IMG/VR virus record: IMGVR_UViG_3300046671_000011
Span: 9,861 to 73,860 of that record
Source of the DNA: a virus
Taxonomy: Duplodnaviria > Caudoviricetes
DNA: 64,000 nt
Direction: 5' to 3' (one strand)
Shown here in pieces: positions 50,946-64,000 of this stretch. A program made the position numbers and the translations under genes. Numbering within the stretch: the first letter of the stretch is position 1; the number at the start of each line of letters is the position of its first letter. The notes beneath the pieces are model-generated. The model ran no database searches, was not told the origin of the DNA, and saw only the letters and a list, made by a program, of their open reading frames with translations.

Positions 50946-51283
50946 AGGAACTAGAGTCGGAAATATGGGGGTACTTGTCCTATTGGACAGACTTCCATAA
51001 CGCTGATGATGCTACAAAGATATTACTAGGTAATGATGAGAATAAGCCAGAGATCCCTTATTACTTCCTTATCTATAGAAAACTCAAGAAATATGGAGGG
51101 ACATTACCTTTTTTATGGGAAGGTGGCTATATGGATCAGCCTTATCTAGCTACTATCTGTATAGAAAGGTGTATATCAGTCGAACAGGATTATGAGTATA
51201 GTCTAAAAGCGAAGGCAAATGAAGTTAACCAGAAACCAGAATCAAACAATCCGTCACCTACAGACCCTCGGAATTTCGAATAG
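50906..51283 (+). CDS. tail assembly chaperone extension (T of GT fusion)
   Basis: -1 frame ORF overlapping chaperone 3' end, immediately before giant ORF. Confidence 0.68.
   Translation: MEPKLQSSLDSQLEELESEIWGYLSYWTDFHNADDATKILLGNDENKPEIPYYFLIYRKLKKYGGTLPFLWEGGYMDQPYLATICIERCISVEQDYEYSLKAKANEVNQKPESNNPSPTDPRNFE
50912..50918 (+). other. programmed -1 frameshift slippery heptamer C CCA AAC
   Basis: X XXY YYZ in frame of 50478 ORF; -1 frame open to 51283. Confidence 0.75.
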
Positions 51284-63200: not shown

Positions 63201-64000
63201 AGAGGAATTGCCTCGGTTACTGGTCGAGGATTAGGTGCATTTGTTCGCGGCGCTGAAGGTATGGGTTCTCGCTACTTTGAAGATGCCAATCGTATTCTTG
63301 GTCGTACCCAACAAGATTATGGGTTTAACATGGAGACTCAGCAGTTAGGTCTCCAGCGTCAGGGTATGAATCAGGCTAATGCTCAATTCCAGGAGCAGTG
63401 GAGTTTTAACCTTAACAAGTTTAATGTTAATACTCAGTTCCAACGTCAAGAGATGGAGATTGGGCATACTCAGCAGAGAGCGCAGTTCCAGTGGCAAATG
63501 CAGGACATGGCCTATAATAAGAATATGTCCCAACTGCAATTTGGCTATTCAATGGTGGATGCTGATGAGCAGATTAGATACTCGACAGGTCGTGCGCGTC
63601 GGGATGCTATGCGACATAAGGAAGAAGCTGTTACTACACATTCAATGGAAATGGGCCACATGGATGTGCAGGCAGACCGCGCAAAAACCCAACAGAAGTG
63701 GGAAGAAGATAGATTTGCACGCGAAAAAGTTCACTTTGAACAAGAAATCAACTTCCAGCGTCAAGAAATGGATATGTCTAAGAAGCACCATGAGCAAGAC
63801 CGTCAACTTGAGGAGCAGCGTTTCCGGCTCCAGGTTGAACAGCACAATAAGTCTCGTGAGTTCCTAATGCAGCAGCGTGTTCTTGAGGATCAACAGCGCG
63901 TTATCCAGCGTGCTATCCAAGATCAGGAACTTGCTGAGCAGGTTCAATCCTTTGCTTTCCATAAGGCTCTCAAGATAGATATAGATAATCTGACGGCTTC
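51219..64000 (+). CDS. giant (>4,250 aa, 3'-truncated) virion polyprotein: putative virion RNA polymerase domain + two M41-like metallopeptidase domains + tape-measure region
   Basis: ATG at 51219; frame open at every segment I translated and at the window end (absent from ORF track, consistent with no stop); in-frame RSP (54288), GGDFDKD (54444), HEAGH (57348), HEFAH (58038); Ala/Gly- then Gln/Glu-rich helical tail. Confidence 0.75.
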   Translation, partial: MKLTRNQNQTIRHLQTLGISNSNIQKVLDTFPESIEQGQIASGLDWLSSEKLDPQSRVSIKADIVESTIGQVNSLIKEGLIHPARAKEWDFRWSTSTPFADRSLYEAISYIKDVNADRGRALARFRSIENQLQDLETLKAKVLNPVFERQAHLGLDISTTPAFYGDVPYLKVGNWLATEQELEDISTSDRKAYRWTTTIRAISQGDKVQGLIGNFPIYQAMPIDMSTGKLSPRKDIPDFHELQQQTLEHLFSQGQNPWSVIKKERTLGAMASGGGEADIGDIIAPYATMGAPFIDYTMGTMRIPGWYRIVPGLERTNVQEYTGKDQRVLKLKRLHDDEGNAIVKWAGDATALAGDWANTRNNGATVFHDLSARMLGRFVAQDENGEDYVYNVLGNSAKQIKKDRIEQRPTVQLGYRDEMGIFQAIPFESKSRFGFPIIGAPLTVAVSVTGGLIPEGQAYAHPSLEAFDEANFRLKISSDETGFKMTTETQNALNASIGQTFKRGQELMINGVPLKVTKNFREGKIKGWNILHEGDESGEGGADYLVVHTEVRGAPYALDSNAAKINIAKSNLVKRYGADIVAGGMTAWNQQMEVSLGIMSDENYNRLLEKALFRRQREGMDTSHIWDRMQAKNEESLWNKENLGIHQEMFREHLLESTFFKKFSTIVNYSTLGVFQSRNENIQDEVARHFGYADRSQLPPMAQLLGFNDQSELPQFIDKVESIGQGLYKITGNEMFFRFETRYRPTLLPSREQTKFNTEALTGYGIRVEDDLGFNKTSRAVTDIINMSGRADRNAAAQLVRAVGLNRGLKVDKADEYLEFNKNTVTPAIYAEYQALSGTLAKKLENNEITEYELTQAKLAYLKTAFDPSKSIQMGNDHRAFFSPSIDWISKKSSPNFSGQETSNLVNKALGAFESLITESQADIRNVATPQVKSLIRSLDQEFESPGIKQKFMSGNDKAARNYPVVGDYALAPNQVVMHLSEMVNMVRTAARQNGVAMSSEDARNYILQEESAGRSAFASELVRSPLTTIGKMAFVDVYSHKWYSDLYNHSGMGNRKISVQRGQIIMSTIAQMLFGGDFDKDRDSLGRPLVQFRPDGKAWDRAVEATTPREILEGAMVNPAGEVVKHVEDRMLGLKAGESVFDVSQNGMRNTFANRVIDKKLSKFMDNLGNPSAYPLSDMSQDATQVWTESKSMMGLGYFFLRGIRAYQKFVFDEELAQGIYGESGRKTAIQTRRLRSVLDATETFTSKGYQDVLDSGPMDLGMERLMYLSRVNLMTGQNADDRSQIKGTFSQNIAAALPLLGLDAETGKYAYDAEVAAKLVIPVHSNEYAKSVASLTKKIKAARAEISASIDRNEGRLGIFKQAEMAGSEIDEWYEAWYSIPIAHHRQALGYVTANAALIALTPKNDHDFEGDLGNLSKSRVDFIYNIANAGAIVKEVQRLTSSKTPLSVEEMLQSLADINDRMMPEALKGASLIWKEVTNQVPFGSDTDTPLQRFRNKALERLSGEKSRTDFNTVFPGTSLNPSLPDVSTMTSLPPNLLEMMSAAFNGSPMPVQSLPIETVTTDRKKRLAPWFHMKIVGQGDEINTDEPIHSRYALPASSLTALDAFAAMTGARRVGGQSEAMELGANLDALLFGRAVVGKGARNKLTGKEMGAGVLSRLLEQDIKQPHYSDLAYSISAGDVEIEGRPNMLSTDENGNKVLYDIRLTSSEENEYRGQVDYPGRDQAAMQAAGKKMYEGQSRELRLYDLMKQTANALGTQADVVRTVYLDRQAVIQGIVQVLQPQMKGKSDEQKTQEATRLLNNPEELYKVINGWYYGTKQKEKGVNIPDFQQEIMSRILKGAMRGYRDYNPTKNIGDSTLTGVDVFNFEVEKTSKVISLVKRAQDEATKRGDPFLAGRERQSVTFSAGKSGNVTVPQMSFELNVPTQAAEHSHNLLKIMAEIGTDDELAALGLSRFEAGQGLASKDVIDKMFLSKDKQEHAYDLVQSTLGIKVFDPSKTPEDVMNDYNKMHNDAKVALLKRLNLNFTNSPSTGDPQYLNAIHEAGHMLAYAKHDIEVTGYVIGKNGSQVGRSKQPEPQSEIDILLHGVAAEMVLLDSKFERVAAHLPDIVKATAIRRKIDNPNSLTTEDVEWFYTEAEKRAVVLNERKEALKEIADKINTNQIWMSDKVDPEITAALKDKYGVDKESSSSGDVAGDLKKAEALRLAYLYWDDRGIQFQGLEWQDERSSATHFMLVESRKPENAKHTKALMQKMYEWYNPDLKELPSEDVAAHEFAHSIVAGGLNPSSPQYINLVKDAKRQGSSSNTFFDNSEANALVAAAGVAGEVAKNGTIRPQFGHASDIIKFLLARGKINQPSDISNLQKEDVDQFYHHALWINENLFGEDVQKRMPKAIQILTQNQGYKRDTNSPSEKLVNKFADHVRVQIQNKLNNGEAVEVPLPKVIESRGQPDRRDNLDIPLNPDELNAMLNEQAQGIDFGAMQAAFDPSNSSGGSAGGTSMNASGVRAGAARQVTAITPPSGNLSGGQPPTVGAVPPAMASSGGPIPVSANDRFNTRTNPIYTRDAAKVLKHADVVKMQQTMGAIEEYSKDSKTKGFTDILDRLQSLHSRLDTLTKPEADELTRLTEQFGSASAMMANANTILSTVGEETANGIRPEDSALGADREEALTAAQAIQGLFGSRFTDSQNQPTRFKTASELLTSYVSFDQQGNKSFHTNEFQRAIGRVTQRTANEKTDKAIERQQTAKEDVDFLNNLQGKSPEDRVAALQARVASQAEPTLHQLAQIESKALKESQSDRALADRADVTRSFLTGKMDVGVAQEQIEEARRLGSAIPEHISGGLADYNKIVQQEGSQRRQMAAGYLGNDLATNQAMLPGLSGIHAEVLTGVVGIQQTEAEVAQRKADRQTEIEQHKQFALGRSAYEALSSQDRAGFRALYQGTTEVERRNLAKAGTANGATLLSTMDNPAWAEHLDKEERKAQARVGSDANSRQIASDATVLTENLSKMSKVMSETSGHVENLTKAQATYVEQIGKVASRLQEAKTAIDSSAEDTPARMAAKETFSRLGGQQALDSASTFLSSQNARGQSLQERAISRQTLGAMGYEDPSMPMQNIGFFKKLALVTGHGEANERTRTMAEEQGILGGEGTFERGAWKAVGVLNTAANLAVQGHYAYRNIMKTFTDPTEKGAAEYAKYEQGNLQGLAAFGQVGLGDISRSQAYGDAYGLTNTQRRTELTFQSASKRGWGTIMESGSFIGEGLAGIQANVAPAVGLGLAAKFTLERGGGMLNGLIGAEAPAAVTAAGEVGLTGAAELGGATAMGAGAVGLSALALPVGVAVAGIALGANFLGNVGGFSKDISGRVDFQRRKKNEGVISAVAHDITGAVANVFDLGMYDRDIRRMSDTTAYYAGSGKSLSNVDDLMFTMTSGAKDLSGGNKELEAPAMQALAYSRSVFGDKQSGRIMGSAAEMLSYMKAGGDLGQIAGLQAQIANTRSGRVVGRQGLASEGALADTLGIVNSDPALIDTINLISPAAQQVQAISTMMGHDYNFDAVANAKAIRANPNLLVNYNQMMGGLSQRSGLERTSRVYAENPIANPNAAMTTLSQTNQFGTLSGTPLSAGGNIMDNFLNGMLGTADHEIYAARQGLYAGSQRQLDLLGIKDPNYAFQIATADKYGDQNIAARSLQMSLGSGILNAGLSSQAAREMEMGLDPYQRGATVAQGKGFAVGSAEYRKEIESKISSLTPPSVLTDKGRAEWMQQQSQKAVEESGLANINQIRRSGGLSEFDGSKISGWSQEKIGAEINAQQSFAQANTIAPMVGFTPIMGQIDSAIAQGNYAQANRYQSQMQQGLSIYQRGMAYGGANNTSLAQLMNVAGQGQQASAFGMAVLSGDTLANAQNADKVDPTGTGAQDWRRLTQTGSRGGTIGMSAGYDERISPLQVIERNRNQASRGYYSLGGTLGLNQLSSMNEVQREDMGNALTLKGRDYDFALQERQMTRGIASVTGRGLGAFVRGAEGMGSRYFEDANRILGRTQQDYGFNMETQQLGLQRQGMNQANAQFQEQWSFNLNKFNVNTQFQRQEMEIGHTQQRAQFQWQMQDMAYNKNMSQLQFGYSMVDADEQIRYSTGRARRDAMRHKEEAVTTHSMEMGHMDVQADRAKTQQKWEEDRFAREKVHFEQEINFQRQEMDMSKKHHEQDRQLEEQRFRLQVEQHNKSREFLMQQRVLEDQQRVIQRAIQDQELAEQVQSFAFHKALKIDIDNLTA

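What the first reader, a model, noticed from the sequence alone, without database searches (positions are those of the whole stretch)
51219..64000. Unlisted giant tape-measure-position ORF carrying a virion RNA polymerase-like motif and tandem metallopeptidase domains
Seen: an ORF of more than 4,250 codons missing from the track, directly after the frameshifted chaperones where the tape measure belongs. In frame are LVRSP (54288) about 50 aa before GGDFDKD (54444-54464), then HEAGH...GVAAE (57348) and HEFAH...GVAGE...ASD (58038), then a long helical Ala/Gly and Gln/Glu region. Established: double-psi beta-barrel RNAPs have RxP upstream of DxDGD, crAss-like virion RNAPs use the DFDID variant, and FtsH/M41 peptidases have HEAGH...G..AE. 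Inference: an injected polyprotein fusing tape measure, virion RNAP and self-processing proteases, with an unusual DFDKD active site.
Basis: partly seen in the sequence, partly recalled or inferred. Interest (0 to 1): 0.78.

Follow-up and report, generated by a model that had tools for sequence, protein, structure and literature searches.

The report
Tape measure fused to RNA polymerase
The giant gene after this uncultured phage's tail chaperones is a tail tape measure protein whose first ~1,300 residues probably form an injected RNA polymerase, an arrangement described so far only in Thermus phage P23-45, here in an unrelated lineage that also carries two protease-like inserts.

Summary

- **Position.** The ORF follows terminase, portal, major capsid protein and a -1 frameshifted tail chaperone. 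In a collinear homolog it ends in a motif shared with hundreds of annotated tape measure proteins.
- **Relatives.** Only three turned up among 1.84 billion representative proteins, all 3,400-3,800 aa and about 25% identical.
- **RNA polymerase reading.** R1024-x-P1026 and G1077-D-x-D-x-D1082 are invariant across all four proteins. So is Y-Q-x-x-L-D (1251-1256), which matches the trigger-loop motif YQIITDRK of P23-45 gp96. Residues 466-554 weakly resemble the RNA polymerase beta flap. These point to a single-chain two-barrel RNA polymerase, but no barrel fold around DFDKD could be modelled and no sequence profile detects any polymerase.
- **Peptidase motifs.** The two HExxH modules are paralogs found only in this phage. 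They line up with the FtsH (M41) protease landmarks but fail the Pfam M41 model.
- **Not supported.** Self-processing and "polyprotein" have no evidence.

This is a new variant of the P23-45 gp96 kind (Chaban 2024). This scan has noted other tape-measure-fused polymerases on unrelated DNA.

The parts
50478..50945 (+). Tail assembly chaperone (G-like), 155 aa, with the slippery heptamer C_CCA_AAC at 50912-50918
   Evidence: It lies in the same frame as the giant ORF, with its stop at 50943-50945.
50912..51283 (+). -1 frame extension of the chaperone (GT-like product); overlaps the start of the giant ORF by 65 nt
   Evidence: the -1 frame peptide is conserved between the window and L001 (PEIPYYFLIYRKLKKYGG..WEGGYMDQP versus PEIPAPYLLLRKLRLFGG..CEGGYLDQP).
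51219..63998 (+). Giant tape measure-position ORF, 4,260 aa, 3' end cut by the contig end (estimated full length about 4,400-4,450 aa)
   Evidence: It is collinear with P0002, P0003 and P0004 over its full length.
51219..55208 (+). Conserved N-terminal module (aa 1 to about 1330): putative single-chain two-barrel RNA polymerase
   Evidence: HMMER hits E 2e-17 to 1e-10 to three giant homologs. Aa 1001-1330 has the highest density of invariant residues in the N-terminal half, 7.9 per 100 aa.
52614..52880 (+). Beta-rich domain, aa 466-554, weakly like the flap/wall domain of the RNA polymerase beta subunit
54288..54464 (+). Putative catalytic barrel (DPBB-A) signature: R1024-S-P1026 ... G1077-D1078-F-D1080-K-D1082
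   Evidence: R, P, G and all three Asp are invariant in the four homologs. The pattern fits the published filter [RK]xPx{20,100}DxDxD.
54969..55052 (+). Y1251-Q-D-V-L-D1256 and L1275..T-G1278: second invariant cluster; matches the trigger-loop motif YQ(I/V)(I/L)TDR(K/Q)K of gp96 and TSP4
55209..58568 (+). Variable central region (aa 1331-2450), only about 42% alignable to the homologs; lineage-specific inserts
   Evidence: The same region of P0004 holds a PD-(D/E)XK nuclease hit.
57276..57968 (+). HExxH module 1 (HEAGH 2044-2048 ... GVAAE ... LPDI)
   Evidence: Weak Pfam M50 hit, E 0.012.
57969..58538 (+). HExxH module 2 (HEFAH 2274-2278 ... GVAGE ... ASDI), paralog of module 1
   Evidence: BLASTP between the modules E 9e-5 at matching offsets. 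Aligned with FtsH. Atlas lead to M41/M50B-like proteins, 0.88-0.89.
58569..63998 (+). Ruler (tape measure) part: helical Ala/Gly/Gln-rich region, transmembrane-like segment at aa 3312-3350 (window 61152-61268), highly conserved Gln/Arg-rich end (13 invariant residues per 100 aa at 3901-4260)
   Evidence: The homolog's C-terminus matches 419 phage records; all but one of the 25 records listed are annotated as tape measure or tail proteins.

Best explanation
The ORF is the tail tape measure protein of an uncultured long-tailed phage of about 90 kb, and it is built from three parts.

1. Residues 1 to about 1330 most likely form a single-chain two-barrel RNA polymerase carried in the tail. D1078, D1080 and D1082 would hold the catalytic magnesium on the beta-prime-like barrel. 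A beta-like barrel with a flap-like insertion lies upstream, around residues 434-600. A bridge helix and trigger loop (YQxxLD, 1251-1256) lie downstream.
2. Residues about 1331-2450 are a poorly conserved linker or cargo slot. In this phage it holds two paralogous HExxH modules that resemble the FtsH/M41 protease domain.
3. Residues about 2450 to the end are the ruler and membrane-channel part.

By analogy with P23-45 gp96, the protein would be ejected through the tail tube at infection. The ruler part would insert in the envelope, and the N-terminal polymerase would transcribe the first genes to enter.

Shown here: the ORF, its position, the family, the invariant motifs, the paralogy of the peptidase modules, and the tape measure signature in a homolog. 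Inferred: the polymerase fold and activity, virion carriage, injection, and what the peptidases cut.
For: Position:
- Terminase, portal, scaffold-like protein and major capsid protein lie upstream.
- A G/GT-type chaperone with a -1 slippery site and a conserved -1 frame lies directly upstream.
- In the syntenic locus L001 the giant gene is followed by 147-aa and 1,550-aa distal-tail-like genes.
- The last 199 aa of the L001 homolog match 419 phage records; all but one of the 25 listed are annotated as tape measure or tail proteins (best E 4e-5).

Family: three collinear giant homologs at about 25% identity.

Polymerase:
- R1024, P1026, G1077, D1078, D1080 and D1082 are invariant.
- GDxDxD and YQxxLD are the two densest invariant clusters of the N-terminal half.
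- The spacing and flanks of RxP...DxDxD resemble E. coli beta-prime, gp96 and gp64: RSPLTTIGKMAFVDV against RAPTLHRLGIQAFEPV.
- Chaban et al. used [RK]xPx{20,100}DxDxD as their filter for viral polymerases.
- YQxxLDxK matches the gp96/TSP4 trigger loop YQIITDRK. The chance of the looser QxxhDxK form in a 240-aa window is 0.004-0.012.
- The aa 466-554 model gives, as top hits, the flap/wall domain of beta-type subunits from bacteria, plastids, Pol I-IV and ASFV. In T. thermophilus beta that domain is an insertion inside the beta-like barrel.

Precedent: P23-45 gp96 is a 5,002-aa tape measure protein with an N-terminal polymerase, a metallopeptidase and membrane segments.

Peptidases:
- Both modules have an intact HExxH and are paralogs.
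- Both line up with FtsH HEAGH / GGRLAEE / GASNDI.
- The protein-atlas lead points to small M41/M50B-like proteins.
Against: - No fold evidence exists for the catalytic barrel. AF2 on aa 380-1420 gave mean pLDDT 35, with helices rather than strands at the DFDKD loop.
- No polymerase is found by Pfam (PF00623, PF00562, PF05183), by PDB sequence or profile search, or by hhalign against the gp96 family. The experimentally validated gp96 1-1200 also gets no Pfam polymerase hit, so this absence counts for little.
- The fourth motif position is K, A or S rather than the usual G.
- P0001 itself has G in place of the trigger-loop Lys.
- The Lys after the flap-like domain is not in one aligned column.
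- The motif matches other than RxP...DxDxD were found after the fact.
- No PHROG or Pfam tape measure family matches.
- The Pfam M41 and M50B models do not match the HExxH modules.
Confidence: 0.65

Rival explanations
1. It is a tape measure protein whose conserved N-terminal module is not a polymerase. The module would be another enzyme or metal-binding domain, with GDxDxD as a generic acidic metal site, for example in an envelope-penetration or anti-defence cargo domain.
For: No profile or fold method detects a polymerase. DxDxD-type acidic loops occur in many enzyme classes (general knowledge). The fourth motif position lacks the usual Gly.
Against: Several signatures occur in the correct order: RxP...GDxDxD, then YQxxLDxK, with a flap-like domain upstream. 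They coincide with the most conserved clusters of the module. The only characterised N-terminal enzyme of a giant tape measure protein is a polymerase (PMC10770324).
Confidence: 0.25
2. It is an injected polyprotein that its own tandem HExxH peptidases cut into a free polymerase and a free tape measure protein.
For: Two intact HExxH modules sit exactly between the polymerase-like and ruler parts.
Against: The modules are absent from all three homologs, so the family does not need them. In P23-45 the polymerase stays part of full-length gp96 in virions. No cleavage sites are known and no peptidase fold was confirmed. The peptidases could equally act on host proteins.
Confidence: 0.1
3. The long frame is an assembly or annotation artefact, for example several genes fused by sequencing errors.
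For: The contig is incomplete and the protein has no annotated relatives.
Against: There are 4,260 codons without a stop. Three independent metagenomic proteins of 3,410-3,799 aa align with it collinearly end to end, and one lies on a syntenic IMG/VR contig.
Confidence: 0.02

Closest known systems
Thermus phage P23-45 gp96 (also P74-26, G20c, TSP4): tape-measure-fused virion RNA polymerase (Chaban et al. 2024, Nat Commun 15:317, PMC10770324)
   Same: Both are giant tape measure proteins placed directly after the tail chaperone. In both, the N-terminal 1,200-1,300 aa carry [RK]xP...DxDxD and a YQxx(T/L)DxK trigger-loop-like motif. Both have a metallopeptidase and Gly/Ala-rich membrane-like segments further along. 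Neither matches a Pfam polymerase family.
   Different: There is no detectable sequence or profile similarity. The motif is DFDKD, DTDAD or DNDSD instead of DFDGD. The RxP-to-DxDxD spacing is 47-54 residues rather than 38. A flap-like insertion may be present where gp96 has none. The gp96 peptidase is an M23 cell-wall hydrolase, whereas here there are two HExxH M41-like modules. No second, non-virion polymerase was found on the incomplete contig. The source is a metagenomic phage of about 44% G+C, not a cultured thermophile phage.
P23-45 gp64, N. crassa QDE-1 and Cellulophaga phage phi14:2 gp66 (crAss-like): single-chain two-barrel RNA polymerases
   Same: The order is a beta-like barrel, then a beta-prime-like barrel with RxP...DxDxD, then a bridge helix and a trigger loop with h-D-x-(x)-K.
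   Different: None of these is fused to a tape measure protein. None appeared in the sequence or fold searches.
FtsH / peptidase family M41 protease domain, and small stand-alone M41/M50B-like proteins
   Same: HExxH, then G-x-A-x-E about 45 residues later, then (A/P)(S)-D-I about 12 residues after that. These line up with FtsH HEAGH, GGRLAEE and GASNDI. The nearest language-model clusters are named M41/M50B-like.
   Different: There is no AAA+ ATPase module. The hairpin region after HExxH is about 10 residues shorter. The Pfam PF01434 and PF13398 models do not match. BLASTP against E. coli FtsH gives E 0.45. The fold was not tested.
Ordinary siphophage tape measure proteins (annotated TMPs of Microbacterium and Klebsiella phages)
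   Same: The gene position is the same, and so are the helical Ala/Gly/Gln-rich ruler and the hydrophobic segment. The C-terminal GGYTGxGxxYEPAGxVxxGExV motif is present in the family: the L001 homolog matches 419 records.
   Different: This protein is about 4-5 times longer and has a conserved 1,300-aa enzyme-like head. No PHROG or Pfam tape measure family matches.

Membership tests
Two-barrel (DPBB) RNA polymerases, single-chain phage/RdRP clade | Signature [RK]xP x(20-100) DxDxD on the beta-prime-like barrel (filter used by Chaban et al. 2024) | tested here: met
   R1024-S-P ... D1078-F-D-K-D1082. R, P, G and the three Asp are invariant in the four homologs, with spacing of 47-54 residues.
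Two-barrel (DPBB) RNA polymerases, single-chain phage/RdRP clade | Double-psi beta-barrel fold carrying the DxDxD loop | tested here: inconclusive
   AF2 with a 4-sequence alignment gave pLDDT 30-50 around the motif, so no usable model resulted.
Two-barrel (DPBB) RNA polymerases, single-chain phage/RdRP clade | Second (beta-like) barrel upstream, with a conserved Lys on strand beta4 | tested here: inconclusive
Two-barrel (DPBB) RNA polymerases, single-chain phage/RdRP clade | Bridge helix and trigger loop downstream of the catalytic barrel | tested here: inconclusive
   The invariant Y-Q-x-x-L-D(-x-K) at 1251-1258 matches YQIITDRK of gp96 and TSP4 at motif level only. Long helices are predicted at 1177-1277, but with low confidence.
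Two-barrel (DPBB) RNA polymerases, single-chain phage/RdRP clade | Detectable sequence or profile similarity to a known polymerase family | tested here: not met
   Pfam PF00623, PF00562 and PF05183 give no hit at E <= 10. PDB phmmer and profile searches give no hit. hhalign against the gp96 family gives probability 0.1. As a control, the validated gp96 1-1200 also has no Pfam polymerase hit.
Two-barrel (DPBB) RNA polymerases, single-chain phage/RdRP clade | Template-dependent RNA synthesis | not testable with these tools
   Needs an expressed protein and a primer-extension assay.
Phage tail tape measure protein | Gene lies directly after the G/GT frameshifted chaperone and before the distal tail genes | tested here: met
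   Slippery site and conserved -1 frame. In L001 the giant gene is followed by 147-aa and 1,550-aa genes.
Phage tail tape measure protein | Sequence similarity to recognised tape measure proteins | tested here: inconclusive
   The C-terminal 199 aa of the homolog P0003/L001 match 419 phage records; all but one of the 25 listed are annotated as tape measure or tail proteins (best E 4e-5). That segment lies beyond the contig end in the window. No PHROG or Pfam tape measure family matches any member.
Phage tail tape measure protein | Long helical, low-complexity ruler with a hydrophobic or Gly-rich membrane segment | tested here: met
   Composition, and transmembrane-like segments at 3312-3350 that are conserved in position in all homologs and also present in gp96.
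Peptidase M41 (FtsH protease domain) | HExxH zinc site plus a downstream acidic third ligand at M41 spacing | tested here: met
   HEAGH/GVAAE/LPDI and HEFAH/GVAGE/ASDI align with FtsH H414-E-x-x-H418, E476 and D492. This is motif level only.
Peptidase M41 (FtsH protease domain) | Match to the family profile (PF01434) | tested here: not met
   No candidate at E <= 10 in the own genome. No Pfam hit at E <= 1 on the whole protein. There is only a weak M50 hit, E 0.012.
Peptidase M41 (FtsH protease domain) | M41 helical protease fold | not tested
crAss-like virion RNA polymerase (phi14:2 gp66 type) | Homology to gp66 and the crAss-like gene module | tested here: inconclusive
   6VR4 does not appear in the PDB sequence or fold searches. 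The portal is SPP1-like, and the context is a long-tailed phage with a chaperone and a tape measure protein. gp66 itself was not fetched for a direct comparison.

The most novel reading that the evidence does not exclude
This is a second lineage of tape-measure-fused virion RNA polymerases, unrelated in sequence to the first, found in ordinary-sized (about 90 kb) phages that are probably mesophilic. Its catalytic loop lacks Gly (DxD[KAS]D), and its beta-like barrel carries a cellular-type flap insertion. Between polymerase and ruler lies an exchangeable cargo slot that holds different enzymes in different members: two M41-like peptidases here and a PD-(D/E)XK nuclease in P0004. If so, tape measure proteins would be general vehicles for injecting enzymes.
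Probability: 0.5. Interest if true: 0.7.

Novelty: new variant of a known kind. Interest (0 to 1): 0.62.

Why it matters
Tape-measure-fused virion RNA polymerases have been shown experimentally in only one narrow group of Thermus phages. A second family with no detectable sequence similarity would show that the arrangement arose, or persisted, well beyond thermophiles.

It would also give new sequence variation at the catalytic loop and trigger loop of two-barrel polymerases. And it would suggest that the segment between polymerase and ruler is a slot for further injected enzymes.

In practice it shows that giant "hypothetical" tape measure genes with no database hits can hide transcription enzymes. 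Such enzymes can be found from the conserved [RK]xP...DxDxD and YQxxhDxK motifs.

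Tried and rejected
Searches that found nothing:
- Pfam and PHROGs on the whole protein.
- tblastn of aa 1-2994 and of the terminase against 50,697 phage records.
- PDB phmmer and profile searches. The only result was a chance ABC-transporter match, E 1.8.
- The search for homologous proteins, three times: aa 300-1500 at near lengths, the A1 profile, and aa 2000-2420 at shorter lengths.
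- The search for related loci. The metagenome and genome collections gave nothing, and P0002 and P0004 gave nothing in viral contigs. Only L001, the contig of P0003, was recovered.
- hhalign of the family against gp96 or the gp96 family: probability 0.1-0.2.
- BLASTP of the ruler part against the gp96 ruler: E >= 0.23.
- The earlier-findings index by sequence: no look-alike.
- Tandem Repeats Finder on the ORF: no repeats.

Structure work that did not deliver:
- AF2 of aa 380-1420 was unusable (pLDDT 35). Its fold-search lists were filled by helical-bundle noise such as ligand-gated channels.
- Alignment A3 was discarded because MAFFT scattered the short fragment across the long homologs. A2 was also partly inconsistent with A1. 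A4, anchored on full-length P0001, was used instead.
- The BFVD fold search of the flap-like domain was uninformative.
- The protein atlas on the polymerase region was uninformative: recognition 1543, scores 0.81.

Readings rejected:
- Circular closure of the contig. The ends share no overlap, and convergent genes are cut at both ends.
- A Ca-binding DxDxDG loop. The residue after the third Asp is R or T, not G.
- A second polymerase gene. No other credible DxDxD ORF lies on the contig, though the contig is incomplete.

Full report
**1. The observation**

Window 51219-63998 (+) is a single frame of 4,260 codons from ATG with no stop, still open at the window's end. At this base composition about 5.5% of random codons are stops, so a stop-free run this long has a chance of about 1e-104 (own arithmetic).

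The window is bases 9861-73860 of a 73,860-base virus record. That record has no terminal overlap and has a gene cut at each end, and CheckV rates it 82% complete. The ORF is therefore truncated. From the homologs, about 140-190 residues are missing, which puts the full length near 4,400-4,450 aa.

- R1024 of LVRSP at 54288
- GGDFDKD at 54444-54464
- HEAGH at 57348
- HEFAH at 58038

DxDxD and R[AS]P each occur once in the whole protein, 54 residues apart.

**2. Context: this is the tape measure position**

Upstream on the same strand lie terminase (41290-43137), an SPP1-type portal (43308-44963), a scaffold-like protein, the major capsid protein (45780-47189), a 608-aa protein and a 155-aa ORF.

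The 155-aa ORF (50478-50945) carries a canonical slippery heptamer, C_CCA_AAC, at 50912-50918. Its -1 frame stays open to 51283. The peptide of that -1 frame is conserved in the homologous locus L001, which shows that it is translated. This is the G/GT tail-chaperone arrangement that precedes tape measure genes.

The rest of the window, on the minus strand, holds early and metabolic genes: Ro60, ribonucleotide reductase, ThyX and RNase H.

**3. Relatives**

No annotated database recognises the protein. A full HMMER search of 1.84 billion representative proteins with aa 300-1499 found only three clear relatives:

| Protein | Length | E-value |
|---|---|---|
| P0002 | 3,799 aa | 2e-17 |
| P0003 | 3,711 aa | 4e-17 |
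| P0004 | 3,410 aa | 1e-10 |

All three align collinearly with P0001 from the first Met to the contig end, at about 25% identity.

P0003 lies on an IMG/VR contig, L001, with the same gene order: portal, scaffold, capsid, a 492-aa gene, a 145-aa chaperone, then the giant gene. Two genes of 147 aa and 1,550 aa follow, which look like distal-tail genes.

The last 199 aa of that homolog carry GGYTGxGxxYEPAGxVxxGExV. They match 419 phage records, and all but one of the 25 listed are annotated as tape measure or tail proteins. The best matches are Microbacterium phage tape measure proteins at 63% identity over 38 aa, E 4e-5.

All four proteins have a Gly/Ala-rich hydrophobic segment at the equivalent place, as gp96 does. 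The tape measure identity of the family is therefore well supported, even though no PHROG or Pfam tape measure profile matches.

**4. Architecture**

Conservation divides the protein into three parts.

| Residues | Character | Invariant residues per 100 aa |
|---|---|---|
| 1 to ~1330 | Conserved head | 4.2-7.9, highest at 1001-1330 |
| ~1331-2450 | Variable linker, only ~42% alignable | 1.3 |
| ~2451 to end | Ruler; the Gln/Arg-rich end is the best conserved part | 2.0-4.0, rising to 13 at 3901-4260 |

**5. Is the head an RNA polymerase?**

A direct precedent exists. Thermus phage P23-45 gp96 is a 5,002-aa tape measure protein. Its first ~1,200 residues are an active two-barrel virion RNA polymerase with 779-DFDGD-783, and metallopeptidase and membrane domains follow. 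The polymerase stays part of the full-length protein in virions (PMC10770324).

Evidence in favour:

- *The catalytic signature is invariant.* R1024, P1026, G1077, D1078, D1080 and D1082 are invariant in all four homologs. GDxDxD is one of the two densest invariant clusters of the N-terminal half.
- *The flanks resemble known catalytic barrels.* RSPLTTIGKMAFVDV ... GGDFDKD compares with E. coli beta-prime RAPTLHRLGIQAFEPV ... NADFDGD, gp64 RRPDLPTGQSAVELTYV ... GADYDGD and gp96 RNPVMGHGG ... VDFDGD. Chaban et al. used exactly [RK]xPx{20,100}DxDxD as their filter for viral polymerases.
- *The second cluster matches a trigger loop.* The other dense invariant cluster is Y1251-Q-x-x-L-D1256, followed by x-K in three of the four proteins. 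It matches the trigger-loop segment of gp96 and TSP4, YQ(I/V)(I/L)TDR(K/Q)K, and of gp64, IQVAVDRQK. It also lies in the right order, downstream of the catalytic loop. The looser form QxxhDxK is expected in only 0.4-1.2% of 240-aa windows of the same composition.
- *A flap-like domain lies upstream.* A second AF2 run on aa 425-600 gave a beta-rich core, aa 466-554, at pLDDT 60-82.
  - Its best PDB matches are the flap/wall domain of beta-type subunits of bacterial, plastid, Pol I-IV and ASFV polymerases.
  - The matched ranges are the same structural element throughout: T. thermophilus beta 702-831, Rpb2 853-972 and plastid polymerase beta 684-812.
  - In T. thermophilus beta this flap is the insertion between strands 3 and 4 of the beta-like barrel. 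Each homolog has a [GA]xKx[HN] just after the domain, where the strand-4 Lys would sit.

Evidence against, or limits on the evidence:

- No profile method sees a polymerase. As a control, the experimentally validated gp96 1-1200 also gets no Pfam polymerase hit. The authors likewise report no significant similarity between polymerase families beyond the DxDxD region.
- The motif has K, A or S where nearly all polymerases have Gly, and P0001 has Gly in place of the trigger-loop Lys.
- The trigger-loop and Lys matches were found after the fact.

I put the polymerase reading at about two in three.

**6. The HExxH modules**

HEAGH (2044) and HEFAH (2274) lie in the variable linker, and all three homologs lack them. 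They are a lineage-specific insert.

The two modules of about 200 aa are paralogs. BLASTP between them gives E 9e-5, at the same offset from HExxH in each.

Aligned with E. coli FtsH, both keep three landmarks of the M41 protease domain:
- HExxH.
- G-x-A-x-E, matching FtsH GGRLAEE, which contains the conserved Glu476.
- (A/P)(S)-D-I, matching FtsH GASNDI, which contains Asp492. Taking these two residues as candidate third zinc ligands rests on my own knowledge of FtsH.

The protein atlas places the region nearest to small stand-alone "M41 domain" / M50B-like proteins. The score is 0.88-0.89, which is a lead only. Pfam gives a weak M50 hit, E 0.012.

Against membership, the Pfam M41 and M50B models find nothing and BLASTP against FtsH gives E 0.45. 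The fold was not tested.

The gp96 peptidase is of a different kind, an M23 cell-wall hydrolase.

Nothing supports self-processing. The modules could equally act on host proteins. In P0004 the same linker holds a PD-(D/E)XK nuclease hit instead: Pfam 24.9 bits against a cut-off of 22, and PHROG exonuclease E 8e-5. This suggests an exchangeable cargo slot.

**7. Mechanism proposed**

This is by analogy with gp96 and is inferred, not shown. The protein would be assembled inside the tail tube with help from the G/GT chaperone and ejected at infection. The hydrophobic, Gly-rich ruler part would form or line the channel through the envelope. The N-terminal polymerase would then transcribe the first genes to enter, and the linker enzymes would be delivered with it.

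**8. Novelty**

The literature search found only the P23-45 group as a described tape-measure-fused polymerase. This scan has already noted several other such fusions on unrelated DNA, mostly 7,500-7,800-aa proteins with a recognisable beta/beta-prime core. None resembles this sequence.

This is therefore a new variant of a known kind: a four-member family with no sequence similarity to the known one, a Gly-less catalytic loop, a possible flap insertion, and tandem M41-like inserts.

**9. Limits**

- Both structure-prediction jobs were limited by the four-sequence alignment.
- The contig is incomplete, so the C-terminus, the distal tail genes and any second polymerase in this phage are unseen.

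Noticed in passing
window 50478-51283: A programmed -1 frameshift in the tail chaperone. The slippery site is C_CCA_AAC at 50912-50918. The roughly 120-aa -1 frame extension is conserved in L001, where the shift site looks different (a GCG_GGG_GAA run of G just before the stop).
   Followed up: partly
P0004, residues about 1528-1621 (homolog; no DNA held): The variable linker of this homolog carries a PD-(D/E)XK nuclease hit where P0001 has its HExxH modules. The hits are PF12705 at 24.9 bits (cut-off 22) and phrog_298 exonuclease at E 8e-5. This hints at an exchangeable cargo slot.
   Followed up: partly
L001:8252-19507 (P0003/P0007), protein residues about 1900-2350: The homolog's ruler part contains three tandem copies of a roughly 140-aa unit (AAKRLRSAPEKL...GTRLAEGLADIPRT) after a long Pro/Ala-rich linker. 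P0001 has no DNA-level tandem repeats.
   Followed up: no
window 48549-50375: A 608-aa protein lies where the major tail (tube) protein is expected. Its only hit is a PHROG of unknown function (phrog_28344, E 3.5e-8), and the L001 counterpart is 492 aa. It is probably a tube protein with extra domains.
   Followed up: no
window 33266-35917 (-): An 883-aa early-region ORF has no Pfam hit and no DxDxD motif, so it is not an obvious second polymerase. Its function is unknown.
   Followed up: no
G000:C1 ends (window end 64000; contig start, 9,860 bases before the window): Both contig ends cut through convergent genes and share no overlap. The record is therefore a fragment (CheckV 82%), and the distal tail genes are missing.
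   Followed up: yes
window 3484-5073 (-), 6101-8131 (-), 16275-17075 (-), 12464-13216 (-): The early region encodes Ro60 (TROVE + vWA), the ribonucleotide reductase large subunit, ThyX, and a C39-like peptidase with an SH3 domain, which is probably a lysin. Earlier scan notes already cover the Ro60/Y-RNA system.
   Followed up: no
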